64,000 nt of DNA from the NCBI GenBank assembly GCA_017439345.1, contig JAFSJJ010000010.1, forward strand, positions 10,442 to 74,441, given 5' to 3'. This document shows positions 8,766-17,401 of the stretch, one piece after another; the stretch's first letter is position 1, and every line of letters starts with the position of its first letter. The notes under the pieces are model-generated. The model searched no databases, was not told the origin of the DNA, and saw only the letters and a list, made by a program, of their open reading frames with translations. The stretch is from Synergistaceae bacterium (lineage in GTDB: Bacteria; Synergistota; Synergistia; Synergistales; Aminobacteriaceae). The position numbers were made by a program, and so were the translations under genes.

Positions 8766-9701
8766 TTATTCAGTTATGCCCGTAGCTTGAGATGCAAGTT
8801 CCGGAGAAAAGCCCATTTCGAGCAGCTTTTGATAAATATTCCTGCTTGCCTCTGCTTTACCATCAAGCAAACCCTTAGCTATTCCTTCGCGTCTGCCTTC
8901 ACGCCTGCCTTTAGCTTCGCCTTTAGCTACCTGCCGTGAAAGAAAGTTATCCATTGTTACTTTGTCTCCTTTCTCGTAATCATAAAGAATTCTGTTTTGT
9001 GCATATTCAAAAGTTTTATCGCCTGTCAATGCCCTCATCAGCTTTAACAGGGAGTCAACGTGTTCAATCTCCCATTTTGAAGCCTTGTAGTTCTTAGTAA
9101 TTCTCTTCTGCCTGAAGTAATCTACGACGATCCTGAAATCACTCGTAAACTTCGCCGCTTGTTCGTCAGTGAGCCACGCAATTTCTATTATATTAAGTTT
9201 TGCATCGTTCACAAACGGCCTAAAGCTCTTGGGAATATCCAGACATTCAAAAAGTGTTCGGGGCTTCTTCCAGCATCTCATGCCGTAATATAACACGATT
9301 GTTACTACAGGATAAAATTTCGTGTTAAGAAGTCTTTTCACTTCCTCAGAGTCCTCTGCTTTCTTGGCTGCCTTTATATCATCATCGCGTCTGGTTATCT
9401 GTACCCGATAGTCTCCTCCCTCGTAACCTGCGACTCTGACCGGCATTGCTTTATCAATCGTGCTTTGGTTCTCAAGACCTAGAAGACAAAAAATTATTCC
9501 GCCCTTAGTCCATAATTTAACGGTGTCCCGTTCCTGCTCGTGTATCTCTCCTGATGACGAATAAACATTTCGAGTCCTGACATCCTGCAAGTCCTCAGGA
9601 GCTATTTTTTCATCAAGAGGCAGCAAACCGTTAATAATATCTGCAAAGACATCGTTATAATCTTCAAGTTTTTTCTCAAGTATATCTTTATCGTGAGTCA
9701 T
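8766..9701 (-). CDS. Rpn/YhgA-family recombination-promoting nuclease (putative transposase-like PD-(D/E)XK)
   Basis: 311 aa with an N-terminal DVFADIINGLL region and the family-typical C-terminal KGxxEG-type repeats (GEAKGRREGRREGIAKGLLDG). Confidence 0.7.
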   Translation of the reverse strand: MTHDKDILEKKLEDYNDVFADIINGLLPLDEKIAPEDLQDVRTRNVYSSSGEIHEQERDTVKLWTKGGIIFCLLGLENQSTIDKAMPVRVAGYEGGDYRVQITRRDDDIKAAKKAEDSEEVKRLLNTKFYPVVTIVLYYGMRCWKKPRTLFECLDIPKSFRPFVNDAKLNIIEIAWLTDEQAAKFTSDFRIVVDYFRQKRITKNYKASKWEIEHVDSLLKLMRALTGDKTFEYAQNRILYDYEKGDKVTMDNFLSRQVAKGEAKGRREGRREGIAKGLLDGKAEASRNIYQKLLEMGFSPELASQATGITE

Positions 9702-9766: not shown

Positions 9767-10948
9767 GTGAACATTTACCCGTTGAATATATCATCACAGC
9801 AGGACATCAATAACATATGCGCAAAGATTCAGACGGACTCAAGGGCATTGGCTTACTTGTCGCCTAAATATAAAATTCTGCACTTCTACGCTGAGAACAT
9901 AGACTACAGGGCAGCGGCTTTTCTCAAGCAGGAATTATTATCACGCGGCGGAGACACTATAGTTACTAAGCACGTAATAGACGGCAAAAGCTCATCAAGC
10001 AATATATTACTCATGGGAACAAGCTCGCAGATTAAGAGCCTGATTCAAAAATTATCTTCAATGGACTGCTGGGGACTGAAAGATTTACGCGAGAGTCTTT
10101 CACGTTCATTCACGAATATAAATATTAACAAATGGCACATCAACAGCAAAATAACTCTCGACAACGATAACACTAAATTAATGGCAATTATAAATCTTAC
10201 TCCGGACTCATTCTACGAGGGCAGCAGAGTCAACGAGTCTCAAATAATCAACACTGCACAGAAATTCTTGAACGAGGGCGCATATATTCTTGACATCGGG
10301 GCAGAGTCGACGCGTCCCGGAGCAGCTCAGGTTGACTCAGAAGAGGAAATTTCGCGGTTAATCCCTGCACTGAAAATTTTACGGCGTGAGTTTGGTGATA
10401 AATTAATAATTTCAGTCGACACTTACAAAGCACTCACAGCACGGTCAGCAATTGACTCAGGAGCAGACATAATTAACGACATAAGCGGCTTCTCACTTGA
10501 TAGGGACATGCTAACTACAATCGCAAAGTTAAACGTCCCGTATATACTCTCTCACATTGAAGGCACTCCATCTAACATGAAAGAATTTGAAGGCCATGAA
10601 GATATTATTAATACCCTGCAAGTTTACTTCACTGATAAAATAAACGCTCTCGAACAGGCAGGACTCAGACGTGAGAATATTATTCTTGATCCGGGCTTAG
10701 GCTTTGCTAAGTCAGAACACGACAACTTCATGATAATAAAGCATATCGAATCGCTAAAAGTTTTCGGGCTGCCAATCATGACAGGACACTCAAGAAAGAG
10801 ATTCACAGGTGATAAAAACGAAATTGCAGGGACTCTTGCCGTGAGTTCATTATTGGCTGGACGGGTGAGTCTCCTGCGTGTTCATGATGTCAGAGAAAAT
10901 TTGCTTGCTGTCTCAGTGAGTCAAAGTATTCATGAATCACAGTTTTGA
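9767..10948 (+). CDS. folP: Dihydropteroate synthase with an uncharacterised ~135-aa N-terminal extension
   Basis: From ORF 9719..10948; the likely start is GTG 9767 with GGAGGA 8 nt upstream. The pterin-binding domain begins near LMAIINLTPDSFYEGSR, followed by DIGAESTRPGA, DTYK, INDISG and GHSRK. Confidence 0.9.
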   Translation: MNIYPLNISSQQDINNICAKIQTDSRALAYLSPKYKILHFYAENIDYRAAAFLKQELLSRGGDTIVTKHVIDGKSSSSNILLMGTSSQIKSLIQKLSSMDCWGLKDLRESLSRSFTNININKWHINSKITLDNDNTKLMAIINLTPDSFYEGSRVNESQIINTAQKFLNEGAYILDIGAESTRPGAAQVDSEEEISRLIPALKILRREFGDKLIISVDTYKALTARSAIDSGADIINDISGFSLDRDMLTTIAKLNVPYILSHIEGTPSNMKEFEGHEDIINTLQVYFTDKINALEQAGLRRENIILDPGLGFAKSEHDNFMIIKHIESLKVFGLPIMTGHSRKRFTGDKNEIAGTLAVSSLLAGRVSLLRVHDVRENLLAVSVSQSIHESQF

Positions 10949-10952
10949 TTTA

Positions 10953-12091
10953 TTAATGTGAGAACTTGTGCCTAATCCAGAACCAAGTATATTTAATCAA
11001 GTTAAGAACTGGTATTTTATTTATGACCCGATACTTAAATGATGCAAAGATTCTCTGAAGCAAAGGCTTGTTTAAACGTTCGGTTAATAAATCTATATTA
11101 GCTGTCGTCTTATCTGCAAGAATGTCTATTAATTCACTGTGAGTTATATCTCTTCCCCATTCAGCTGCGAGAAATGTATTCCAGTATAATTTTTCGTGTG
11201 CTGCTCCTGTGAAGACTTTCCACGGCTTGGGGACTGCGTACATATGCATTATGCAATGTGATAAATCTAGGTCTTTATTAAGAAGGTCATAGACATTGAA
11301 TCTGGGATCAATAAATTTTTTATCGCTTTCGAAAACAGAATTAATTGCATCCTGGTCCGGGAAGAGCGGCATATGACGATAATACATAAGCCATTCAAGG
11401 ATAATTTTGCTGAAATCTCCTCTTTCGCGAATTTTTTTGAGATTCATAACAGTTACTCCGGAATTAATATATTGTGTTCTGTTGCAGCCTAAAAATTCTA
11501 CATGCAGTGATAATTCTGATAAAAATTTCTGGCTGTGAACCCTGTCTAATACGCCGGCAATGCTTTTATTCTCAAGATCGATGCTCCAGAGTTCGTTAAT
11601 ATCAAGATTTACGATTATGTCGCAGTCAATATAGATTATTTTGTCAAGTGCAGGCAAAGCTTCAGGGATAAACATTCTGTAAAGAGCTCCGACCGTCCAT
11701 TGTCCTGAAATATGCTTTATTGATTCGCTGATTCTTTTTTCATGCTCTGTTATGTCGATAAACTCTAAAGTCTGTGAAAAATTTTCTGCTGTCTTGATTA
11801 ATTTATTGCGGTTGTCCTGTGTTAAAGTCTCATCATGCAGAATATGAATTGTAACAGGATTATGAGTGTGCTGAAAAATTGAAGTGATTACTACGCCTGC
11901 ATTCTGTGAATAATTTCCTGAAGGGTCATAGAGTGCTAATGCTACGTGTATGCGTTCAAGTGTTTCATTAGGCTTTAAGGCACAATAACAGCGTTGGGCG
12001 TTGGGCGTTGGGCGTTGGGCGTTGGGCGTTGGGCGTTGGGCGTTGGGCGTTGGGCGTTGGGCGTTGGGCGAATTGTAAAGTTATTTTGCAT
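10953..12091 (-). pseudogene. GT8-family glycosyltransferase with no usable in-frame start (phase-OFF or frameshifted)
   Basis: The listed ORF 10953..11675 (DCDIIV, GT8 C-terminal half) continues open upstream to 12080, encoding ...NETLERIHVALALYDPSGNYSQNAGVVITS (the GT8 N-terminus). That stretch has no ATG/GTG/TTG. The upstream ATGs at 12091 and 11968 are both in the wrong frame. Confidence 0.7.
11991..12070. repeat. Perfect heptanucleotide tandem repeat, (GCGTTGG)x11 plus GCG
   Basis: Read directly from the sequence: 80 nt with an exact 7-nt period. The ORF-track entry 11994..12197 (GVGRWAL repeats) is its translation. Confidence 0.97.
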
Positions 12092-12100
12092 TCCTGTCAA
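12072..12100 (-). promoter_or_regulatory. Sigma70-type promoter, TTGACA-17 nt-TACAAT, facing the GT8 gene
   Basis: On the minus strand the -35 TTGACA is at 12100..12095 and the -10 TACAAT is at 12077..12072, with a 17-nt spacer. The same architecture is conserved in the paralogous copy at 17198..17226. Confidence 0.5.
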
Positions 12101-12158
12101 GCTCCCTGTTAATAATTTGCGTTTTTGTAATTACAACATAAAGCATTCATGCACTATT

Positions 12159-12269
12159 ATAAAAACGAAATTGCAGGGACTCTTGCTGGACGTGTGAGTC
12201 TCCTGCGTGTTCATGATGTCAAAGCTAATATGATTGCCGTCTCAGTGAGTAAAAGTATTCATGAATCAC
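12159..12269 (+). pseudogene. Relic duplicate of the folP 3' end (last ~37 codons, in-frame 18-nt deletion)
   Basis: Aligns with 10812..10940 with about 8 substitutions and one 18-nt gap. It translates as KNEIAGTLAGRVSLLRVHDVKANMIAVSVSKSIHESLF*, compared with KNEIAGTLAVSSLLAGRVSLLRVHDVRENLLAVSVSQSIHESQF* for folP. Confidence 0.85.
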
Positions 12270-12614
12270 TTTTCTAATTGACTCGCATTCTGACTCGGTC
12301 AATCTTGAGTCATTATTCTCGTCAAACATTTTATTGATTCCGCCTATGATTTCTTCAGCGAGTGAAGCAACTAAATCACTATCACCGGACATGCTTAATA
12401 TTTTTATGCCGTAATCGAAATCGCGTTTCAGGTTATCGAATTTTTCAGGGGTCGCAACAACTCTGCATTCATTCAGGGAGGATTCACGGACTCCGGGCTT
12501 CATGAGTTCCCATTTAAATTTTGCCTGAGGGTCAAAGCGGTTTGCAAGCTCCATTAATTCTTTGGCTCCTGATGAGATTTTCTTCTTGAACGTGTTAATT
12601 ATGTTCGCTGCCAT
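12225..12614 (-). CDS. Hypothetical small soluble protein (129 aa), last gene of the GTPase operon
   Basis: The ORF overlaps the upstream gene by 20 nt. I recognise no motif. Its final 15 codons are antisense to the folP-tail relic. Confidence 0.6.
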   Translation of the reverse strand: MAANIINTFKKKISSGAKELMELANRFDPQAKFKWELMKPGVRESSLNECRVVATPEKFDNLKRDFDYGIKILSMSGDSDLVASLAEEIIGGINKMFDENNDSRLTESECESIRKVIHEYFYSLRRQSY

Positions 12615-13449
12615 GTGATAAAGTTTTGTCTATTGACGGCGATACTACATCGTATTTTAAGACGCTGGAGTCTCTCGATGAAAAATGACGTTCCGGAAGT
12701 GCTTTCTTAATATCTTCTGTGAGTCCGTTGATAACTTCTCGGCGGTTGACCTCTTGAGCCTTCTGAATCTCTTGAGCCTTATCCCTGCCTCCAAAGACAT
12801 AACAGCCCGCGATAAAAACTCCTACAAGTACTGCAACACCTACTGTAACTGCTGCAATCTTCTTTACTTTACCTGAAGAGTTATCTTTATCATCATCAGC
12901 AAATGACTCTGTTTCTGTTATGTCAAAGACCCTGCCAATATTAATATATTGCTCCTCACCGTTACGCTTCGTCCACTTCAGAACTTTGCCTTTATGAAGC
13001 CAGCCGTTGTCCTCGAAATCTCCGCCGTCAGACTGAAGCCAGCTCATGAAAGCAGACTCGTCAAGTTTAACGCCTTCTGCTTCAGTGCCTTCGTTAATGT
13101 CTTGAAGATTATTACTCAGCCAATTTTCAACGTCCTCCCAGTGATCGCTAATCTTAATGAACGCTGAAGCTGCTTTGCTAATCTCTTCAATCGGGAAAAT
13201 TTCACAGAACGAGAATCTTATTGCTCGTCCCCTCTCGTCTCGTTTATGGCGGTCAAGACCTGAAGCTACGAGATAAATTTTTGCATTCTCAATGAACGAA
13301 CATACGCACTCTTCGCCTTCAAGAATGCTGCATTTCTGACGCAGGGGCCTGAAACCTTCATAATTGCTGACAGTACCTGAGCCTCCGTTGATAAAGACCC
13401 TGTAATCTACAAATCTTGTGCGCGTTACGAATCTGAAATTATCACTCAT
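12595..13449 (-). CDS. Hypothetical single-pass membrane protein (284 aa)
   Basis: Has GGGGGTG 8 nt upstream of the ATG. It has a ~195-aa N-terminal domain, one TM helix (IAAVTVGVAVLVGVFIAGCYVF) and a ~65-aa charged C-terminal tail. Confidence 0.7.
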   Translation of the reverse strand: MSDNFRFVTRTRFVDYRVFINGGSGTVSNYEGFRPLRQKCSILEGEECVCSFIENAKIYLVASGLDRHKRDERGRAIRFSFCEIFPIEEISKAASAFIKISDHWEDVENWLSNNLQDINEGTEAEGVKLDESAFMSWLQSDGGDFEDNGWLHKGKVLKWTKRNGEEQYINIGRVFDITETESFADDDKDNSSGKVKKIAAVTVGVAVLVGVFIAGCYVFGGRDKAQEIQKAQEVNRREVINGLTEDIKKALPERHFSSRDSSVLKYDVVSPSIDKTLSHGSEHN

Positions 13450-13453
13450 AGTT

Positions 13454-14437
13454 TTACACCCCCATTAATTCTTTTCCGCAGATTATTTCATTTCTGCTGC
13501 TTCCGGAAGATATTCCGCTGCGGACATATTTTGCGATGTCAGGCATGTTGTCAGGCGAGAAAAATTCCCAGTCCCAAACGCAAACAAAGTGAAACATTTT
13601 GCGCCATATACTTTTGCTGCGTTTCTGCTGCTTCCTGAACTGCTCGAATAAGAAGCTCATTGCGAATCTCAAAGGCTGGTCGGTGTATTCGGGACTAAAA
13701 GTTTTGCCGTTGACTTTCATGAAAACCTGCTCTACTGCTCTGCCGCCTGCTGTCTTTAAATAGCTGAATTTGACATTGCCCATCGTGTTAATCGGGACTA
13801 TTGCAATTGCCAGCTTGCCTTTATAAGTTTCCTGTCCCATTTTGATTGTGTCATGAAAAGCATTCTTGACTGCCTGCTTCAATGCCTGCTGAGAGCTCCA
13901 GCTTTCCATATACTTTTCGCACTTAATCGGCACGAGCAGAATTAATCTCTCCTGCTTGTCTGATTCTCCGATTACTTCTTTTATCATGAGTTCGACATCT
14001 CTAATAGCTGCCTGCTCTGCATATTTCCCGCCTTGTTCCATTAAGTAGGGTGTATCGACTGCGACTATAAACACCAAAGACTGCTTCATTAACTTGATGA
14101 CTTGATTATAGTCTTGATCTGCTGCACTGCGAGCTATCCATCTTCCGGGGAAATCAAAGAATCTCACGGGCATAATGTTTTTATTACCCTTAATCTTGAA
14201 ATCGAAGGAAGTCATGTCTTCAGTATTCTTGACTTCACTGATATTCAATGTGCTAGGGTTTGCTGATTCCTTGAGTCTCTGATAAGCGTCCTCAAGAATG
14301 CCAAATGTCCTTCTGTCAGGGTAAAACGTTCCGGGTATCATGCTCTCAAGCTCTCTGTTCATGCAGGCAAGCATTGAAGTTTTGCCCGAACCCGAAGGCC
14401 CAAGCATTGTGAATATTAACGGTTTTGTCTCTGCCAT
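13454..14437 (-). CDS. P-loop GTPase-like protein (327 aa, TRAFAC-type motifs)
   Basis: Walker A/G1 is MLGPSGSGKTSML and G3/Walker B is RFFDFPGRW. There is no canonical NKxD; LVPIKCEKY is a possible G4 variant. Confidence 0.8.
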   Translation of the reverse strand: MAETKPLIFTMLGPSGSGKTSMLACMNRELESMIPGTFYPDRRTFGILEDAYQRLKESANPSTLNISEVKNTEDMTSFDFKIKGNKNIMPVRFFDFPGRWIARSAADQDYNQVIKLMKQSLVFIVAVDTPYLMEQGGKYAEQAAIRDVELMIKEVIGESDKQERLILLVPIKCEKYMESWSSQQALKQAVKNAFHDTIKMGQETYKGKLAIAIVPINTMGNVKFSYLKTAGGRAVEQVFMKVNGKTFSPEYTDQPLRFAMSFLFEQFRKQQKRSKSIWRKMFHFVCVWDWEFFSPDNMPDIAKYVRSGISSGSSRNEIICGKELMGV

Positions 14438-14479
14438 AACGTTAACTCCTTTGTTAGTAGAATCTTTTCGCTGAGATAA

Positions 14480-14647
14480 TTACTTGCTTTGTTTAAGTAT
14501 CCAAGCAATGACAAAAGCTGTTACTGCTGAAGCTAGTGCTGAGGCCAAGAGCCACATCACTTTTTCTAAATTGCCTAAACTATTTTCCGCAAGCAAAACA
14601 AACCAAGAAGTCCCGCATAGAAGAAAAATAATACACACACAATCCAT
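14480..14647 (-). CDS. Possible small hydrophobic protein (55 aa); an alternative 25-aa ORF runs from ATG 14652
   Basis: Below the ORF-track cutoff. Hand translation gives MDCVCIIFLLCGTSWFVLLAENSLGNLEKVMWLLASALASAVTAFVIAWILKQSK. It fills the only gap in the operon. GGGGG lies 10-15 nt upstream of the two ATGs. Confidence 0.3.
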   Translation of the reverse strand: MDCVCIIFLLCGTSWFVLLAENSLGNLEKVMWLLASALASAVTAFVIAWILKQSK

Positions 14648-14659
14648 TTCATATTGTAT

Positions 14660-16933
14660 TTACCCCCTGAACATAAAATTAGATGAACTCAATAACGCAG
14701 CAATCTCACTCAACGGAGCGCGTAAAGCTGCACATAATTCATTTCGTCTTTGTGAAGCCCCGTACTCTTCAGGCCACACTTTCCCCCTGATTGACCGGTA
14801 AAATCTCCGCCACTGATTTTGAAGACTCTTGCCTTCAAGTTGATTTGATCTGATGACTATATCTTTGAATTCTTCGGCCGCTGCAAAAGCTGCCTTGTTA
14901 GGTTCCGAGTATATATCTGCAAATGTCCTGTAAATCTCGTTAATCGTTTCGTAATAAAGAGCCTCAAGCAGTGTTATTGTCTCGCCGATGTCTGACAAGG
15001 GAACAACGTATTCTTGTGACGCTTTGTCTAACGGGTCAAGCCTGTTGAGCGAACTTCTGAGCCTGTGCTGAATAAAGCTCCTGTAATTCATTGAGTAGCC
15101 GAATAACAGGTTAAAGCCTTCAATGAGGGCGGGGACATCGTCTTTGAATTCTGATTTATCAAGGAAATTTATAATCTCGTTGAGCAGTCTGTAATCTCTG
15201 ACTCCGAAAGCCTTTTCAAGTCTGCCGGTATCTGCAAGAATCTCGCATATTTTATTCTTCATGTCGAGCAGCACAGCATTTAATGTAACGTCTAAATTTT
15301 CCTGAAGCTGTGAACTTAATTCCGTCCTGAGCAGGTGCATTGCATTTTCACGGGCCGTCTGAAGTCCTCCTGCCATGTTTGAAGTTTCCTTGATGTAGCT
15401 AGTGTAGTTTGCAGCCAAATCAAATTCTTCTGCCGACTTTAGAATCTCCATGATCTTTTCTTTAAATGGTATGCAGTCATCATCGCGCTTGACTCTTAAT
15501 TCTGAACCTTCGCCGACAACTTCTTGAAGCTTCATCCGCAGTTTGTTCCATAAGTCGTCCCAGAGGTCGTCAAATTTTCCGCTGTCCCTCTCTGAGTTAG
15601 AGTCATCACGCAAGAGCCACATAGCTTTATCCGTAATATCTTTGATGTCTGATAACAGCTTGTTCAAGAGTTCCTGAAGATTTTTCGCGTACTCTAAATC
15701 ATTGCGTTCAATATTGGCTGCGAGAAACTCTAATGCCTTATCAATTAATTTCTGTGAGACTTCATCAGGATTAGTGCAGTCTACGATAACAGAGTCAGAC
15801 ACTTTGATTTGAGCACTTGACATGTACTTTTGCATTAACTCGCACTGAGGCATATTCTCCGCTCCAGGTCTTGAGTCGTGGTTGAATACCCAGAATGACC
15901 AGCGTTCTATAGGAAGTTTTTCACCGAGCGCACGTTTTGCCTGACTATATAAATGAATCTCGTTATCCTGCCAGGCTGCTCCGGTATTTGAGGGCTTTGA
16001 CAGAAAGAAGACTAAATCAACCTGATCGCTCAATGCAGATACGACTCTTTTAACGTCTCCGATTCGAGTGTCTCCGAGTCCCGGCAGGTCTATTAATCTC
16101 AATGCGTTTACGTCAGTGTTAGGGAACTTGCAGAAAATTTCTACCCGGTCAACTGCTGCGTGTTTGAAAAATACTCTTTCACCCTTTGCGTTATCTTGAG
16201 CTACGTATTCGCGTATTTGTTCCCGTGATATTCTTAGCGGCGGCTTGTCTAAGTACTCCTGATACTGGCTCAAGTGGTCTTGTAAGTCCTTCAGGTGTTC
16301 TAAGTGCAGATTCATTTGAGTTATATATTCAGGGCTTGCCTTCAACGTTCCAGGCTCAGGGATATTTTGAGTCTTGAACTCTGCAACGCTTGACGGAGGG
16401 AATAAATCAATTTTATGCTGCTGAAGGTCTGCAAAGTAAGGCTCGATGTTCTCAGATATAAAGCGTCTCTCAGTCAGAAAATTTACTACTGCATAGGCTT
16501 CACTTGCTGAAGGGTCGTTAATTATATCGCTTCGGACTCCTGTGCAGAATGCCAAATTTCCGTCCGGTATCTCCTGAGCACTTAGTCCCGTTATCGTCTG
16601 TAAGAGTCTGCTCTTGCCCTGTCTAGCTCTGCCGATTACTGCGATGTTAAGGGTTCTGCGTGAGAGTCTTGCTGCTATGTTGTGCAAGTCCGCCGTTAAC
16701 CAGCTGCCTTCGTTGATTATGTGTTCCGATGAGTTCACTGTCTTGAAGAGTTCCGCAAGGTTTCCTGATTCTGAGTCTGACTCTGAGTCTATGTCCCTGT
16801 TATATTTCCTGCATAAGTTCGAGAATTCCTCAAACTTTGAGAGTACCCGCGATAATTTCTCTCTTGACTGGGTAATCTTCTCTGCAAGAGGCGCGCGCTG
16901 ATTGATAATGCTCTCGATGAAGTCCTGTCTCAT
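14660..16933 (-). CDS. Dynamin-family large GTPase (bacterial dynamin-like protein, 757 aa)
   Basis: G1 is IAVIGRARQGKSRLLQTITG and G3 is LRLIDLPGLGDT. It has a long helical C-terminal half (~400 aa) and an N-terminal acidic/Ser stretch, DIDSESDSESG. Confidence 0.85.
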   Translation of the reverse strand: MRQDFIESIINQRAPLAEKITQSREKLSRVLSKFEEFSNLCRKYNRDIDSESDSESGNLAELFKTVNSSEHIINEGSWLTADLHNIAARLSRRTLNIAVIGRARQGKSRLLQTITGLSAQEIPDGNLAFCTGVRSDIINDPSASEAYAVVNFLTERRFISENIEPYFADLQQHKIDLFPPSSVAEFKTQNIPEPGTLKASPEYITQMNLHLEHLKDLQDHLSQYQEYLDKPPLRISREQIREYVAQDNAKGERVFFKHAAVDRVEIFCKFPNTDVNALRLIDLPGLGDTRIGDVKRVVSALSDQVDLVFFLSKPSNTGAAWQDNEIHLYSQAKRALGEKLPIERWSFWVFNHDSRPGAENMPQCELMQKYMSSAQIKVSDSVIVDCTNPDEVSQKLIDKALEFLAANIERNDLEYAKNLQELLNKLLSDIKDITDKAMWLLRDDSNSERDSGKFDDLWDDLWNKLRMKLQEVVGEGSELRVKRDDDCIPFKEKIMEILKSAEEFDLAANYTSYIKETSNMAGGLQTARENAMHLLRTELSSQLQENLDVTLNAVLLDMKNKICEILADTGRLEKAFGVRDYRLLNEIINFLDKSEFKDDVPALIEGFNLLFGYSMNYRSFIQHRLRSSLNRLDPLDKASQEYVVPLSDIGETITLLEALYYETINEIYRTFADIYSEPNKAAFAAAEEFKDIVIRSNQLEGKSLQNQWRRFYRSIRGKVWPEEYGASQRRNELCAALRAPLSEIAALLSSSNFMFRG

Positions 16934-17166
16934 GATAAATAAATCAATCCTTTCATGTTATGTGTGTGATGAGTGAATTAATGATCTCGAAATGTTCACA
17001 GCGAATCAAATGCATCTGGGTTAATGCATAAAATCAAATGTGAGCAGCCTTGTATTTCGTGAATGTAAATGTAAATTTGAATCGTGAAGAGCGTGTTAAT
17101 ATAAATACTGGTGTGAAAAATTTATTTTTATTTCGTTGAGTGTGATTTAATTCGTTTGAGTTCTCA

Positions 17167-17246
17167 GGCGTTAAGGCACAATAATAGCGTTGAGCAAAAT
17201 GTAAAATTATTCTGCATCCTTGTCAAGTTCTCCTTCATTAATGATT
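17167..17246. repeat. Direct repeat copy B of the promoter/leader element (single degenerate heptamer unit)
   Basis: GGCGTTAAGGCACAATAATAGCGTTGAGCAAAATGTAAAATTATTCTGCATCCTTGTCAAGTTCTCCTTCATTAATGATT aligns with copy A at 11971..12118. Confidence 0.8.
17198..17226 (-). promoter_or_regulatory. Sigma70-type promoter, TTGACA-17 nt-TACATT, facing the dynamin-like operon
   Basis: On the minus strand the -35 is at 17226..17221 and the -10 is at 17203..17198. This implies a leader of about 255 nt before ATG 16933. Confidence 0.5.
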
Positions 17247-17401
17247 AATAAATAATTTTCATTCAGTTTATTGAGTGATTATAACAAAAAATTTTTCTGC
17301 GTGAATGTTTTTATTTTTTCGTGAACGTTTATTAAAGCCCCTGTAAATTTGCTCTTACTTCTGAAATAATTATTATAGGATTTAATATTTAATCTGGAGG
17401 T

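What the first reader, a model, noticed from the sequence alone, without database searches (positions are those of the whole stretch)
12225..17226. Orphan operon: dynamin-like GTPase + small hydrophobic ORF + second compact GTPase + single-pass membrane protein + small helical protein, a candidate undescribed conflict/membrane system
This is a tightly coupled minus-strand operon (gaps of 4 nt, a 20-nt overlap, and one 222-nt gap holding a hydrophobic mini-ORF). It is driven by a consensus promoter with a ~255-nt leader. It encodes:
- a 757-aa dynamin-family protein (G1 GRARQGKS, G3 DLPGLGD, long helical stalk);
- a 327-aa P-loop GTPase (GPSGSGKT, DFPG) with no dynamin stalk;
- a 284-aa single-pass membrane protein;
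- a 129-aa protein.
The last two have no motifs I recognise.

The operon sits in a repeat-bracketed variable locus next to a phase-variable-looking surface glycosyltransferase. That is the kind of neighbourhood where defence genes accumulate.

Dynamin-like proteins are known in anti-phage defence (the LeoA/LeoBC Eleos system, and DynA-mediated membrane protection in Bacillus). However, the partner set here is not the Eleos composition as I know it: a short non-dynamin GTPase plus a dedicated membrane anchor. A paired-GTPase membrane-surveillance or abortive-infection module is a reasonable hypothesis, but it is only a hypothesis.
Basis: inference. Interest (0 to 1): 0.8.

Follow-up and report, generated by a model that had tools for sequence, protein, structure and literature searches.

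The report
Dynamin, small GTPase, membrane-anchor gene cassette
This operon is one copy of a previously unnamed but widespread, horizontally mobile three-gene set: a dynamin-like GTPase, a small switch GTPase and a membrane-anchored regulator-like protein, found in rumen Synergistaceae and many cyanobacteria, which probably reshapes or guards the cell membrane, although its trigger and purpose are untested.

Summary
The five minus-strand ORFs, their spacings and their motifs are exactly as described.

**What each protein is**
- The 757-aa protein has a true bacterial dynamin-like fold (AlphaFold pLDDT 88; Foldseek BDLP E 5e-13).
- The 327-aa GTPase belongs to Pfam DO-GTPase2, a family defined in 2020 for computationally predicted "GTPase-centric conflict systems".
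- The 284-aa protein has a cytoplasmic domain with longin topology and an invariant D..GR loop, one TM helix and a variable outside tail.

**Not an orphan.** The order 757 → 327 → 284 recurs in 63 of 80 genome loci and 73 of 80 metagenome loci. These come from Synergistaceae, many cyanobacteria (including a Nostoc plasmid), and one Chloroflexota and one Bacillota MAG. The 55-aa and 129-aa ORFs are specific to this lineage.

**What it is not.** It is not Eleos. It lacks the GAP1, GASH and FNIII parts of canonical DO-GTPase systems. It resembles E. coli RdcA/RdcB only by analogy.

**Mobility.** The cassette moves as a block, together with a relic 5' module of a phase-variable gene and a copy of the folP 3' end.

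**Most likely mechanism (inferred).** The anchored longin-like protein regulates the small GTPase, which recruits or activates the dynamin at the membrane.

A defence role is possible but unproven. Flanking genes are mostly housekeeping, and one clade adds a diguanylate cyclase.

The parts
14660..16933 (-). D757: bacterial dynamin-like GTPase. N-terminal helices span residues 2-91, the G domain about 95-384, and the helical trunk 389-750. No TM segment was detected.
   Evidence: ORF. Pfam Dynamin_N scores E 1.4e-5, just under the cut-off. The AlphaFold2 model has pLDDT 88.4. Foldseek PDB matches: BDLP 2j69 E 4.8e-13, SynDLP, IniA, Campylobacter DLP1/2, and LeoA at E 3.7e-5. Invariant G1 (G101, K107, S108), T131, and D282/G285 across 96 homologs. 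dN/dS is 0.15 against L098.
14480..14647 (-). H55: probable small two-helix membrane protein, lineage-specific and not annotated in any public source.
   Evidence: ORF with two hydrophobic stretches. A 57-aa ORF sits in the same slot in L098 (68% identical) and in L182 (84%). In L097 the slot holds a 326-aa G327 paralog with an N-terminal two-TM hairpin. dN/dS is noisy at 0.63 and 1.5. The exact sequence is absent from the protein collection.
13454..14437 (-). G327: small P-loop GTPase of the DO-GTPase2 family. The G domain starts at residue 8. There is no zinc ribbon, no TM segment and no stalk.
   Evidence: Pfam PF19993 scores E 4.1e-12, 46.7 bits against a cut-off of 27. Family motifs are GPSGxGKT, D[FY]PG[GRE]W (no catalytic Gln) and an invariant PxKCEKY. 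It lies directly downstream of the dynamin gene in 63 of 80 genome loci. dN/dS is 0.31.
12595..13449 (-). M284: single-pass membrane protein. It has a cytoplasmic domain of residues 1-170 with longin-like topology, a TM helix at about 203-225, and a short helical outside tail.
   Evidence: In the AlphaFold2 model the N-domain has pLDDT 80-94, with strand/helix order beta-beta-alpha-beta-beta-beta-alpha-alpha. Foldseek best matches are TagF, the Lst4 longin domain, and chains of GATOR1, FLCN-FNIP and SEA complexes, at E 2e-3 to 0.1 and probability 0.75-0.89. D71, R75 and S80 are invariant or nearly so across 38 family members. Profile-profile comparison of the Synergistaceae version against the cyanobacterial version gives 92.9% probability, E 3.6e-7. 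There is no Pfam match even at E 10.
12225..12614 (-). S129: small lineage-specific protein of unknown fold. Its last ~17 codons are antisense to the folP-tail remnant.
   Evidence: ORF. Homologs are found only in close relatives: L182 at 70% identity, and L097 weakly at E 4e-6. Its C-terminal motif resembles the C-terminal tail of the M-protein of L011. dN/dS is 0.50. No family match.
16934..17165 (-). Untranslated leader of the operon.
   Evidence: It is conserved at 80-83% in L097 and L182. There is no Rfam match. Folding energy is no better than shuffles, z = 0.23.
17164..17305 (-). Relic 5' module.
   Evidence: It aligns with the 5' end of the neighbouring GT8 gene. Promoter scan. The same module precedes the cassette in L182, L097 and L098.
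12159..12279 (+). Remnant copy of the folP 3' end, marking the 3' border of the cassette.
   Evidence: It is 80-87% identical to 10812-10950 with an 18-nt deletion. It is present after the cassette in L182 and L097, where no folP is nearby.

Best explanation
The operon is a horizontally mobile, accessory three-part GTPase machine that acts at the inner face of the cytoplasmic membrane.

**Shown**
- The core is a conserved gene triad in the order D-G-M.
- D is a BDLP-fold dynamin-like protein with intact G1-G3 motifs and no membrane anchor of its own.
- G is a small DO-GTPase2-family GTPase that lacks a catalytic glutamine after DxxG.
- M is a single-pass membrane protein. Its N-terminal domain has longin topology and an invariant Asp/Arg loop. 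Its part beyond the TM helix varies greatly and in some members carries extracellular Ig-like repeats.

**Inferred**
1. M sits N-in/C-out and serves as the membrane platform and nucleotide-state regulator of G. The invariant Arg75 may act as an arginine finger, as in the longin-domain GAPs FLCN, NPRL2 and SMCR8.
2. G is the switch. It either recruits D to the membrane or pairs with D's G domain to gate D's GTPase-driven assembly.
3. D then tethers, seals or remodels membrane. In one Synergistaceae clade it may instead act on a co-encoded membrane diguanylate cyclase.

The variable outside tail of M is the likeliest input site, sensing envelope state or an invader. I think the most probable biological role is a response to envelope damage or invasion. 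This matches the 'conflict system' sense in which DO-GTPases were first described. H55 and S129 are lineage-specific accessories.
For: **The triad is conserved**
- Anchored on D: G follows in 63 of 80 genome loci, and G plus M in 62. Eight of the 66 loci with enough downstream sequence truly lack G; L090 is also flagged by the script but does carry G.
- Anchored on G: D precedes in 73 of 80 metagenome loci. The 7 exceptions are all cut by the contig end or, in one case, preceded by a paralog.
- The third gene is homologous across phyla (hhalign 92.9%).

**Component identities**
- D fold.
- G family.
- M fold, topology and invariant D71/R75.
- Extracellular He_PIG repeats follow the TM helix in the L040 M-protein.
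- Membrane anchoring recurs. Second G paralogs carry TM helices in L026-L031, L097 and L102. A fused DO-GTPase2-C2 protein occurs in L024.

**Background on longin GAPs**
- Longin-domain GAPs use an arginine finger located within the longin domain (PMC12290439).

**Accessory and mobile character**
- Flanks differ between Synergistaceae relatives.
- Several genomes carry two or more copies.
- A complete triad lies on Nostoc carneum plasmid3.
- The block moves together with its 5' module and folP tail.
- D carries frameshifts in L182.
- Purifying selection acts on D, G and M, with dN/dS of 0.15-0.31.
Against: - The longin assignment rests on one model built from 13 sequences. The Foldseek E-values are no better than 2e-3 and the TM-scores are below 0.5.
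- The position of R75 relative to a nucleotide pocket was not modelled.
- No membrane paddle or amphipathic anchor in D was demonstrated.
- No interaction, GTPase activity or phenotype has been measured for any member.
- Flanking genes show no clear enrichment of defence genes.
- No phage or viral copies were found.
- The GGDEF-linked clade and the SNF2-helicase variant (L007) show that the G-M pair can serve other outputs. 'Membrane remodelling' may therefore not be the common denominator.
Confidence: 0.5

Rival explanations
1. It is a dedicated anti-phage defence system, either abortive infection or membrane protection. The dynamin is the effector, and the G-M pair is the sensor and threshold switch.
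For: - G belongs to a family defined in predicted conflict systems (PMC7159879).
- Its distribution is patchy, multi-copy, plasmid-borne and non-syntenic.
- The extracytoplasmic tail of M is hypervariable.
- In L007 the dynamin is replaced by an SNF2 helicase.
- Some cyanobacterial loci sit next to CHAT-TPR, SF1 helicase, NB-ARC or NERD genes.
- Dynamin-like proteins do act against phage: DynA (PMC8844932) and Eleos (10.1101/2022.05.11.491447).
Against: - No PADLOC model matches any of the five proteins convincingly.
- Only a handful of the 130 nearest flanking ORFs match defence models, and the commonest neighbours are GGDEF, flavin reductase and sugar or metabolic genes.
- The neighbours in this window are gyrA, aspartate kinase and folP.
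- No experimental test exists.
Confidence: 0.25
2. It is a signalling module like E. coli RdcA/RdcB-DgcE. A dynamin-like GTPase reads the GTP level or membrane state and switches membrane-embedded enzymes such as diguanylate cyclases. No membrane remodelling is involved.
For: - In seven Synergistaceae loci (L026-L031, L034) a multi-TM GGDEF gene directly follows M on the same strand. It overlaps M by 4 nt in L028 and L029.
- RdcA is a soluble dynamin-like GTPase of similar size and layout that activates DgcE through its membrane domain (PMC6510439).
Against: - D757 and RdcA share only weak G-domain similarity (hhalign 39%).
- RdcB is unrelated to G327.
- The window's operon and the cyanobacterial cassettes have no GGDEF gene.
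- The GGDEF link is confined to one clade and could reflect shared ancestry of closely related genomes.
Confidence: 0.15
3. It is a housekeeping membrane-dynamics system, for example for thylakoid or cell-envelope biogenesis or for division. It happens to be unannotated.
For: - BDLPs are proposed to act in cyanobacterial membrane dynamics (PMC9950537).
- Flanking genes are mostly housekeeping.
- Purifying selection acts on all three core genes.
Against: - The pattern scan found only 252 relatives in a collection of 185,579 species genomes.
- Synergistaceae, which have no thylakoids, carry it, often in several copies.
- It shows variable position, plasmid carriage and frameshifted copies.
Confidence: 0.07
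4. It is an ordinary member of an already described system: Eleos (LeoA/LeoBC) or the canonical DO-GTPase-GAP1 system.
For: - There is a weak LeoBC match (E 0.002) and a fold match to LeoA (E 3.7e-5).
- G passes the Pfam DO-GTPase2 cut-off.
- M sits where GAP1 would sit and, like some GAP1 proteins, has a C-terminal TM helix with outside Ig/cadherin-like domains (PMC7159879).
Against: - There is no LeoA model match and no second or fused dynamin.
- No GAP1-N, GAP1-M or GAP1-C domain, GASH domain, FNIII repeat or zinc ribbon was found. This covers 38 plus 10 M-family members, 10 distant representatives, and the other ORFs.
- The 2020 paper does not mention dynamin and reports DO-GTPase systems as nearly absent from cyanobacteria, where this cassette is commonest.
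Confidence: 0.03

Closest known systems
Bacterial dynamin-like proteins (Nostoc punctiforme BDLP 2J69, SynDLP, IniA, Campylobacter DLP1/2)
   Same: D757 has the same overall fold: a G domain plus a long helical neck and trunk built from N- and C-terminal helices. Foldseek E-values run from 4.8e-13 to 1e-9 at probability 1.0. The G1, G2 and G3 motifs are conserved.
   Different: There is no detectable sequence match to any solved dynamin, and the Pfam Dynamin_N score is below the cut-off. D757 is not paired with a second dynamin, unlike most BDLP operons. Its partners are instead a small GTPase and a membrane protein. No paddle or TM segment was identified.
DO-GTPase / GAP1 'GTPase-centric conflict systems' (Kaur, Burroughs, Iyer, Aravind 2020, PMC7159879)
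   Same: G327 is a Pfam DO-GTPase2 member. Relatives often carry two paralogous copies, one of them with TM helices. A constant partner is encoded just downstream and can carry a C-terminal TM helix and outside Ig/cadherin-like domains. The associated NTP-driven polymer-forming partner parallels the tubulin and HSP70 themes of those systems.
   Different: GAP1 domains, GASH, FNIII repeats and zinc ribbons are absent. The partner is a dynamin-like protein, which the paper does not mention. The cassette is commonest in cyanobacteria, where those systems are reported as nearly absent. The function of those systems is itself only predicted.
Eleos (LeoA / LeoBC) anti-phage system
   Same: It is a dynamin-superfamily GTPase in a small operon with membrane-associated partners. 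D757 resembles LeoA at fold level.
   Different: The PADLOC LeoBC match is marginal and covers only the N-terminal helices, and there is no LeoA match. Eleos partners are themselves dynamins. Here the partners are a stalkless small GTPase and a longin-like membrane protein.
E. coli RdcA (YjdA/CrfC) - RdcB - DgcE
   Same: It is a roughly 750-aa soluble dynamin-like GTPase with an N-terminal helical extension and a co-encoded small partner, acting on a membrane-embedded diguanylate cyclase (PMC6510439). Seven Synergistaceae cassettes end in a multi-TM GGDEF gene.
   Different: Similarity is weak and limited to the G domain. RdcB is unrelated to G327 or M284. The operon in this window has no GGDEF gene.
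Longin-domain regulators of small GTPases (FLCN-FNIP, GATOR1 NPRL2/3, C9orf72-SMCR8; bacterial TagF; by analogy MglB for MglA)
   Same: M284's N-domain has longin secondary-structure order, and its best structural matches are these proteins. It is encoded next to a small GTPase. It carries an invariant arginine in a loop of that domain, as the longin GAPs do (PMC12290439).
   Different: The resemblance is at fold level only and statistically weak. There is no sequence similarity. M284 is a single chain with a TM anchor rather than a longin heterodimer. The GP motif described for eukaryotic GAP longins was not seen. GAP or GEF activity is untested.

Membership tests
Dynamin superfamily / bacterial dynamin-like proteins | Large G domain with G1 (GxxxxGKS/T), a G2 threonine and G3 (DxxG) | tested here: met
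   GRARQGKS at 101-108, T131 and DLPG at 282-285 are invariant in 96 homologs. Pfam Dynamin_N scores E 1.4e-5, at 25.6 bits against a cut-off of 27.
Dynamin superfamily / bacterial dynamin-like proteins | Helical neck/trunk (stalk) fold flanking the G domain | tested here: met
   The AlphaFold2 model has pLDDT 88.4. Foldseek gives BDLP 2j69 at E 4.8e-13, and SynDLP, IniA, DLP1/2, Mx and mitofusin at probability 1.0.
Dynamin superfamily / bacterial dynamin-like proteins | Membrane-binding paddle or TM segment | tested here: inconclusive
   A hydropathy scan found no TM segment. A conserved hydrophobic stretch around 601-620 (GFxLL..SYRxFIQHR) could be a paddle, but this was not examined in three dimensions.
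Dynamin superfamily / bacterial dynamin-like proteins | Assembly- or dimerisation-stimulated GTP hydrolysis and membrane remodelling | not testable with these tools
   This needs biochemistry.
Eleos (LeoA/LeoBC) | LeoA-type and LeoBC-type dynamin proteins encoded together | tested here: not met
   PADLOC gives LeoBC at E 0.002, 15 bits, covering residues 17-126 only. There is no LeoA match, and the partner proteins are not dynamins.
DO-GTPase / GAP1 GTPase-centric systems | DO-GTPase family GTPase | tested here: met
   PF19993 DO-GTPase2 scores 46.7 bits against a cut-off of 27, covering residues 11-194. The precomputed annotation is the same for 13 of the 16 homologs.
DO-GTPase / GAP1 GTPase-centric systems | GAP1 protein (GAP1-N1 or -N2, GAP1-M and GAP1-C domains) encoded downstream | tested here: not met
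   No GAP1 or any other consistent Pfam match was found in M284, in 38 family members at E 0.01, in 10 members at E 10, or in 10 distant representatives. Caveat: profile-profile comparison with the GAP1 models could not be run.
DO-GTPase / GAP1 GTPase-centric systems | GASH protein or FNIII-repeat protein; N-terminal zinc ribbons on the GTPase | tested here: not met
   None was found in the five ORFs. G327 begins directly at the P-loop strand, with no Cys-rich N-terminus.
RdcA/RdcB regulators of diguanylate cyclase | Homology to RdcA and RdcB | tested here: not met
   D757 against RdcA gives BLASTP E 0.005 over 65 residues and hhalign 39%. G327 against RdcB shows no similarity.
Longin-domain GTPase regulators | Longin fold (beta-beta-alpha-beta-beta-beta-alpha-alpha sandwich) | tested here: inconclusive
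   The secondary-structure order fits. Foldseek matches to TagF, the Lst4 longin domain, and GATOR1, FLCN and SEA chains have E 2e-3 to 0.1, probability 0.75-0.89 and TM-scores of 0.38 or less.
Longin-domain GTPase regulators | Catalytic arginine finger contacting the GTPase's nucleotide | not tested
   R75 is invariant, but no complex model or assay was possible.

The most novel reading that the evidence does not exclude
The D-G-M triad is a self-contained bacterial counterpart of the eukaryotic logic 'small GTPase + longin-domain GAP/GEF on a membrane + dynamin-family mechanoenzyme'. It is spread by plasmids among cyanobacteria and Synergistaceae, and it works as a new class of inducible membrane-defence or membrane-repair system. 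If so, it would be the first bacterial case of a longin-type arginine-finger regulator controlling a septin/GIMAP-clade GTPase that in turn deploys a dynamin.
Probability: 0.3. Interest if true: 0.85.

Novelty: new variant of a known kind. Interest (0 to 1): 0.65.

Why it matters
- Bacterial dynamins still mostly lack known triggers and partners. A cassette that hard-wires one to a small switch GTPase and a membrane-anchored regulator gives a defined three-protein system in which recruitment and activation of a bacterial dynamin can be tested.
- It extends the DO-GTPase family, so far only a computational prediction, to a new partner set. It also extends it to cyanobacteria, where those systems were thought nearly absent.
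- If the longin-like arginine-loop domain is a true GAP, regulation of small GTPases by longin-domain GAPs would have a bacterial example.
- If the cassette protects against phage or envelope damage, it adds a new defence type that is frequent in bloom- and mat-forming cyanobacteria and in rumen and oral Synergistaceae.

Tried and rejected
- **Sequence searches of the PDB.** Single sequences and family profiles of D, G and M found no solved homolog.
- **PADLOC and NCBIfam.** Only marginal hits were returned.
- **GAP1 hypothesis for M284.** No Pfam support was found at any threshold, nor in distant representatives. The Synergistaceae-type M profile finds only 78 clusters among 1.84 billion proteins.
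- **RdcA/RdcB homology.** Rejected.
- **Riboswitch or structured leader.** There is no Rfam match, and folding gives z = 0.23.
- **Phage or prophage carriage.** Nothing was found in IMG/VR or in GenBank phages.
- **Empty-site search.** The aspartate-kinase look-up failed because the public gene call starts at a different codon. All contigs with the identical GT8 protein also carry the operon.
- **Conserved synteny.** Rejected. No other cassette-bearing locus has the aspartate kinase, gyrA, folP or GT8 neighbours. The exception is L182, which keeps gyrA only.
- **Literature.** Searches on DO-GTPase, bacterial dynamin with small GTPase or longin, and Eleos found no description of this triad. This is not proof that none exists.
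- **Not spent.** The third Foldseek job and a structure prediction of G327 were not run.

Full report
**1.

The window carries five minus-strand ORFs at exactly the stated coordinates, with the stated spacings and motifs:
- 757 aa, 14660-16933
- 55 aa, 14480-14647
- 327 aa, 13454-14437
- 284 aa, 12595-13449
- 129 aa, 12225-12614

The same DNA occurs in public assemblies of a rumen-type 'MAG: Synergistaceae bacterium'. There the four larger ORFs are MBQ6772749-52 (IJP48_01680-01695), all labelled hypothetical. The 55-aa ORF is annotated nowhere; gene callers place an antisense 97-aa ORF there instead.

**2. What the proteins are**

*D757.* It scores just under Pfam's Dynamin_N cut-off and has no sequence-detectable relative in the PDB. 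An AlphaFold2 model built on 96 homologs is confident (pLDDT 88.4). Foldseek places it firmly in the dynamin superfamily:
- best matches are Nostoc BDLP (E 4.8e-13), SynDLP, IniA and the Campylobacter DLP pair;
- these are followed by Mx, mitofusin/Fzo1 and OPA1;
- LeoA matches at E 3.7e-5.

G1 (G101, K107, S108), T131 and D282/G285 are invariant in the family. No TM segment is present.

*G327.* It is a Pfam PF19993 DO-GTPase2 member, at 46.7 bits against a cut-off of 27. That family comes from Kaur et al. 2020 (PMC7159879). They predicted 'GTPase-centric conflict systems' built from one or two DO-GTPases, a GAP1 protein, a GASH or FNIII protein, and variable effectors. The G327 family keeps GPSGxGKT and D[FY]PG[GRE]W, so there is no glutamine after the DxxG. 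It also keeps an invariant PxKCEKY.

*M284.* It has no family match anywhere. Its model is confident for residues 1-170. The layout is:
- an N-domain with strand/helix order beta-beta-alpha-beta-beta-beta-alpha-alpha, the longin order;
- a disordered linker;
- the TM helix;
- a helical tail.

Foldseek's best matches are TagF, the Lst4 longin domain, and chains of the GATOR1, FLCN-FNIP and SEA complexes. They are weak, with E 2e-3 to 0.1 and no hit below 1e-3. Across 38 family members, D71 and R75 are invariant and S80 is nearly so. D71 and R75 lie in the loop between the last two strands; S80 lies in the strand that follows.

*S129 and H55.* Neither has any family match.

**3. It is not an orphan: a conserved triad**

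A pattern scan of one genome per species found 252 relatives of D757. The best 80 loci are Fretibacterium/Synergistaceae MAGs, about 60 cyanobacteria, one Chloroflexaceae MAG and one Bacillota MAG. The cyanobacteria include Nostoc, Calothrix, Scytonema, Okeania, Lyngbya, Laspinema, Waterburya, Pleurocapsa and Spirulina.

I translated all six frames and searched them with phmmer and iterated HMMs. Results:
- A G327 homolog lies directly downstream of the dynamin gene in 63 of the 80 loci, and both G and an M284-like single-pass protein in 62.
- The script flags 9 of the 66 loci with enough downstream sequence as lacking G. One of these, L090, does carry G, overlapping the end of D.
- In the reverse experiment, anchored on G327 in JGI/ENA metagenome contigs, D precedes G in 73 of 80 loci. 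Six of the 7 exceptions have G within about 430 nt of the contig start; the seventh (L123) is preceded by a truncated G paralog that runs to the contig start. M follows in 67.

The third genes of Synergistaceae and cyanobacteria are homologous over the N-terminal about 90 residues, which include the D..GR.IR.S loop (hhalign 92.9%, E 3.6e-7).

*Variants*
- Many Synergistaceae cassettes carry a second G paralog, often with TM helices.
- Gene order is D-M-G in L021, L033 and L103.
- L024 has a 1208-aa protein that fuses DO-GTPase2, a second P-loop domain and a C2 domain.
- L007/L008 have a 4-TM protein, an SNF2 helicase, two G paralogs and an M-like protein, but no dynamin.
- L040's M-protein carries five He_PIG Ig-like domains after the TM helix. 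This places the C-terminus outside the cell.

*The small ORFs*
- S129 occurs only in the closest relatives (L182, and weakly L097). Its C-terminal motif appears fused to the tail of the M-protein in L011.
- H55 is kept as a 55-57-aa ORF in three lineages. It occupies the slot where L097 has a TM-anchored G paralog.
- dN/dS is 0.15 for D, 0.31 for G, 0.27 for M, 0.50 for S129, and 0.6-1.5 for H55, the last being noisy.

**4. The locus and mobility**

The region is two tandem units of the form [folP 3' end][cassette][5' module].

- *Unit 1* is the true folP end (10812-10950), a GT8 glycosyltransferase, and its 5' module.
- *Unit 2* is a folP-tail remnant (12159-12279, 80-87% identical with an 18-nt deletion), the GTPase operon, and a second copy of the 5' module at 17164-17305.

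The module holds a promoter-like TTCACG-16-TATAAT preceded by TG, a ribosome-binding site, ATG-MQNNFT, and CCAACGC units.
- Upstream of GT8 the tract has 11 units here and 8 in the ENA assemblies. In both cases the start is out of frame with the GT8 body.
- Upstream of the operon there is a single unit and a 17-codon uORF.

The promoter scan is not enriched over shuffles.

The same block is found in L182 and L097, whose flanks differ: 5' module, then the 80-83% conserved leader, then the operon, then the folP-tail remnant. L182 additionally carries a further piece of the 5' module after the remnant. L182 lies next to gyrA but has no aspartate kinase, folP or GT8.

Further signs of mobility and dispensability:
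- In L182 the dynamin gene is interrupted by two frameshifts.
- No other cassette-bearing Synergistaceae locus shares this window's neighbours.
- Several MAGs hold two cassettes.
- D homologs lie on eight cyanobacterial plasmids.
- Nostoc carneum NIES-2107 plasmid3 carries the complete triad.
- No copy was found in IMG/VR or in GenBank phages.

The cassette is therefore accessory and moves horizontally as a block.

**5. How it most likely works**

*Shown.* There is a fixed trio:
- an anchor-less dynamin-fold mechanoenzyme;
- a small GTPase without an obvious catalytic glutamine;
- a membrane-anchored protein whose cytoplasmic domain has longin topology and an invariant Asp/Arg loop, and whose extracytoplasmic part is hypervariable.

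*Established knowledge.*
- Longin and roadblock domains are the usual platforms that bind and regulate small GTPases.
- The longin GAPs FLCN, NPRL2 and SMCR8 use an arginine finger within the longin domain (PMC12290439).
- Dynamin-family proteins are activated by G-domain dimerisation and assembly on membranes.

*Inference.*
1. M, oriented N-in/C-out, tethers G and sets its nucleotide state, with R75 as a candidate arginine finger.
2. G-GTP recruits D to the membrane, or G pairs with D's G domain to gate it.
3. D assembles and tethers, seals or remodels membrane.

The outside tail of M is the likeliest input.

The biological purpose is the weakest link.

*For a conflict or defence role*
- The origin of the DO-GTPase family in predicted conflict systems.
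- The patchy, multi-copy, plasmid-borne distribution.
- The variable sensor-like tail.
- The swap of the dynamin for an SNF2 helicase in L007.
- Occasional CHAT-TPR, NB-ARC, NERD or SF1-helicase neighbours.
- The precedents of DynA and Eleos (PMC8844932; 10.1101/2022.05.11.491447).

*Against a conflict or defence role*
- No convincing PADLOC match.
- Among the 130 nearest flanking ORFs of 35 cassettes, only a few match defence models: PDC-S03 x3, mad2 x3, generic MotA-like ZorA x2, and singletons. The commonest Pfam families are GGDEF (7), flavin reductase (5), Uma2 (4), rhomboid (3) and metabolic enzymes.

The seven GGDEF genes all come from one Synergistaceae clade. There a multi-TM diguanylate cyclase follows M on the same strand, overlapping it by 4 nt in two loci. 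This recalls E. coli RdcA/RdcB, in which a soluble dynamin-like GTPase and its partner activate the membrane cyclase DgcE (PMC6510439). However, D757 and RdcA share only weak G-domain similarity, and RdcB is unrelated to G327. That system is therefore an analogy and a rival reading, not a family assignment.

**6. Comparison with what is known**

- *Bacterial dynamin-like proteins:* a member at fold level. The paddle is unresolved and activity cannot be tested here.
- *Eleos:* not a member.
- *DO-GTPase-GAP1 systems:* the GTPase criterion is met. The GAP1, GASH, FNIII and zinc-ribbon criteria were tested and not met. The 2020 paper never mentions dynamin and reports its systems as nearly absent from cyanobacteria.
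- *Reach of the M family:* the Synergistaceae-type M profile reaches only 78 clusters among 1.84 billion representative proteins, none of the 10 distant ones scanned carrying a GAP1 domain.
- *Literature:* my searches found no description of this triad. Absence from an open-access library is not proof.

**7. Verdict**

One component belongs to a described family, and the defence claim is unproven.

I rate it a new variant of a known kind: a DO-GTPase-centred system with a dynamin partner and a longin-like anchor. Interest is 0.65. The conserved architecture is striking and directly testable, but every functional statement is still inference.

Noticed in passing
window 10953-12091 (-), repeat tract 11991-12067: The family-8 glycosyltransferase is a slipped-strand phase-variable gene.
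- The Pfam GT8 domain needs residues upstream of the ATG at 11675.
- The likely start, ATG 12091, is joined to the gene body through a (CCAACGC)n tract and is out of frame with it.
- The tract has 11 units in this window and 8 in the ENA contigs L001 and L179-L181. Both counts give the OFF frame.
- Two Logan contigs end inside the tract.
   Followed up: partly
window 17164-17305 and 11970-12150: The 5' end of the phase-variable GT8 gene is duplicated upstream of the GTPase operon. The duplicated piece holds a promoter-like element, a ribosome-binding site, ATG-MQNNFT and a heptamer unit. Upstream of the operon it forms a 17-codon uORF (17217-17164).
   Followed up: partly
window 12159-12279; L182 14406-14562; L097 5958-6113: A roughly 120-nt copy of the folP 3' end lies antisense to the last codons of the 129-aa ORF. 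It travels with the cassette into contigs that have no folP nearby. The mechanism of this block movement is unexplained.
   Followed up: partly
window 8766-9701 (-): The 311-aa ORF next to folP matches YhgA-like Transposase_31 (Rpn-type recombination-promoting nuclease family), just above the Pfam cut-off. It might relate to the local rearrangements.
   Followed up: no
L026-L031 and L034 (e.g. L029 7929-9149): In one Synergistaceae clade a multi-TM GGDEF diguanylate cyclase is the fifth gene of the cassette. It overlaps the M gene by 4 nt in L028 and L029.
   Followed up: partly
L007 185-6034, L008: This variant has no dynamin. It holds a 4-TM protein, an SNF2-family helicase, two G327 paralogs, a 224-aa protein and an M284-like protein.
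   Followed up: no
L024 1247-4873: A 1208-aa protein fuses a DO-GTPase2 domain, a second P-loop domain and a C-terminal C2 (lipid-binding) domain. It lies about 3 kb upstream of a D757 homolog that has no adjacent G or M gene.
   Followed up: no
L040 11193-13424; L090 11205-12197: Some M-family proteins carry large extra domains beyond the core. L040 has five He_PIG Ig-like repeats after the TM helix, and L090 has pentapeptide repeats.
   Followed up: no
L182 9811-12075: In a 79-kb contig of a close relative, the dynamin gene (86-94% identical) is split over three reading frames by two frameshifts. This is either pseudogenisation or assembly error.
   Followed up: no
L087 10536-16040; L051 12394-17046; L045 12518-17551: Giant signalling or conflict-type genes sit inside or next to some cyanobacterial cassettes.
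- L087: a 1834-aa protein with Ser/Thr kinase, AAA_16, GAF and histidine-kinase domains lies between D and G.
- L051: a CHAT-TPR protein lies next to the cassette.
- L045: an SF1 helicase lies next to the cassette.
   Followed up: no
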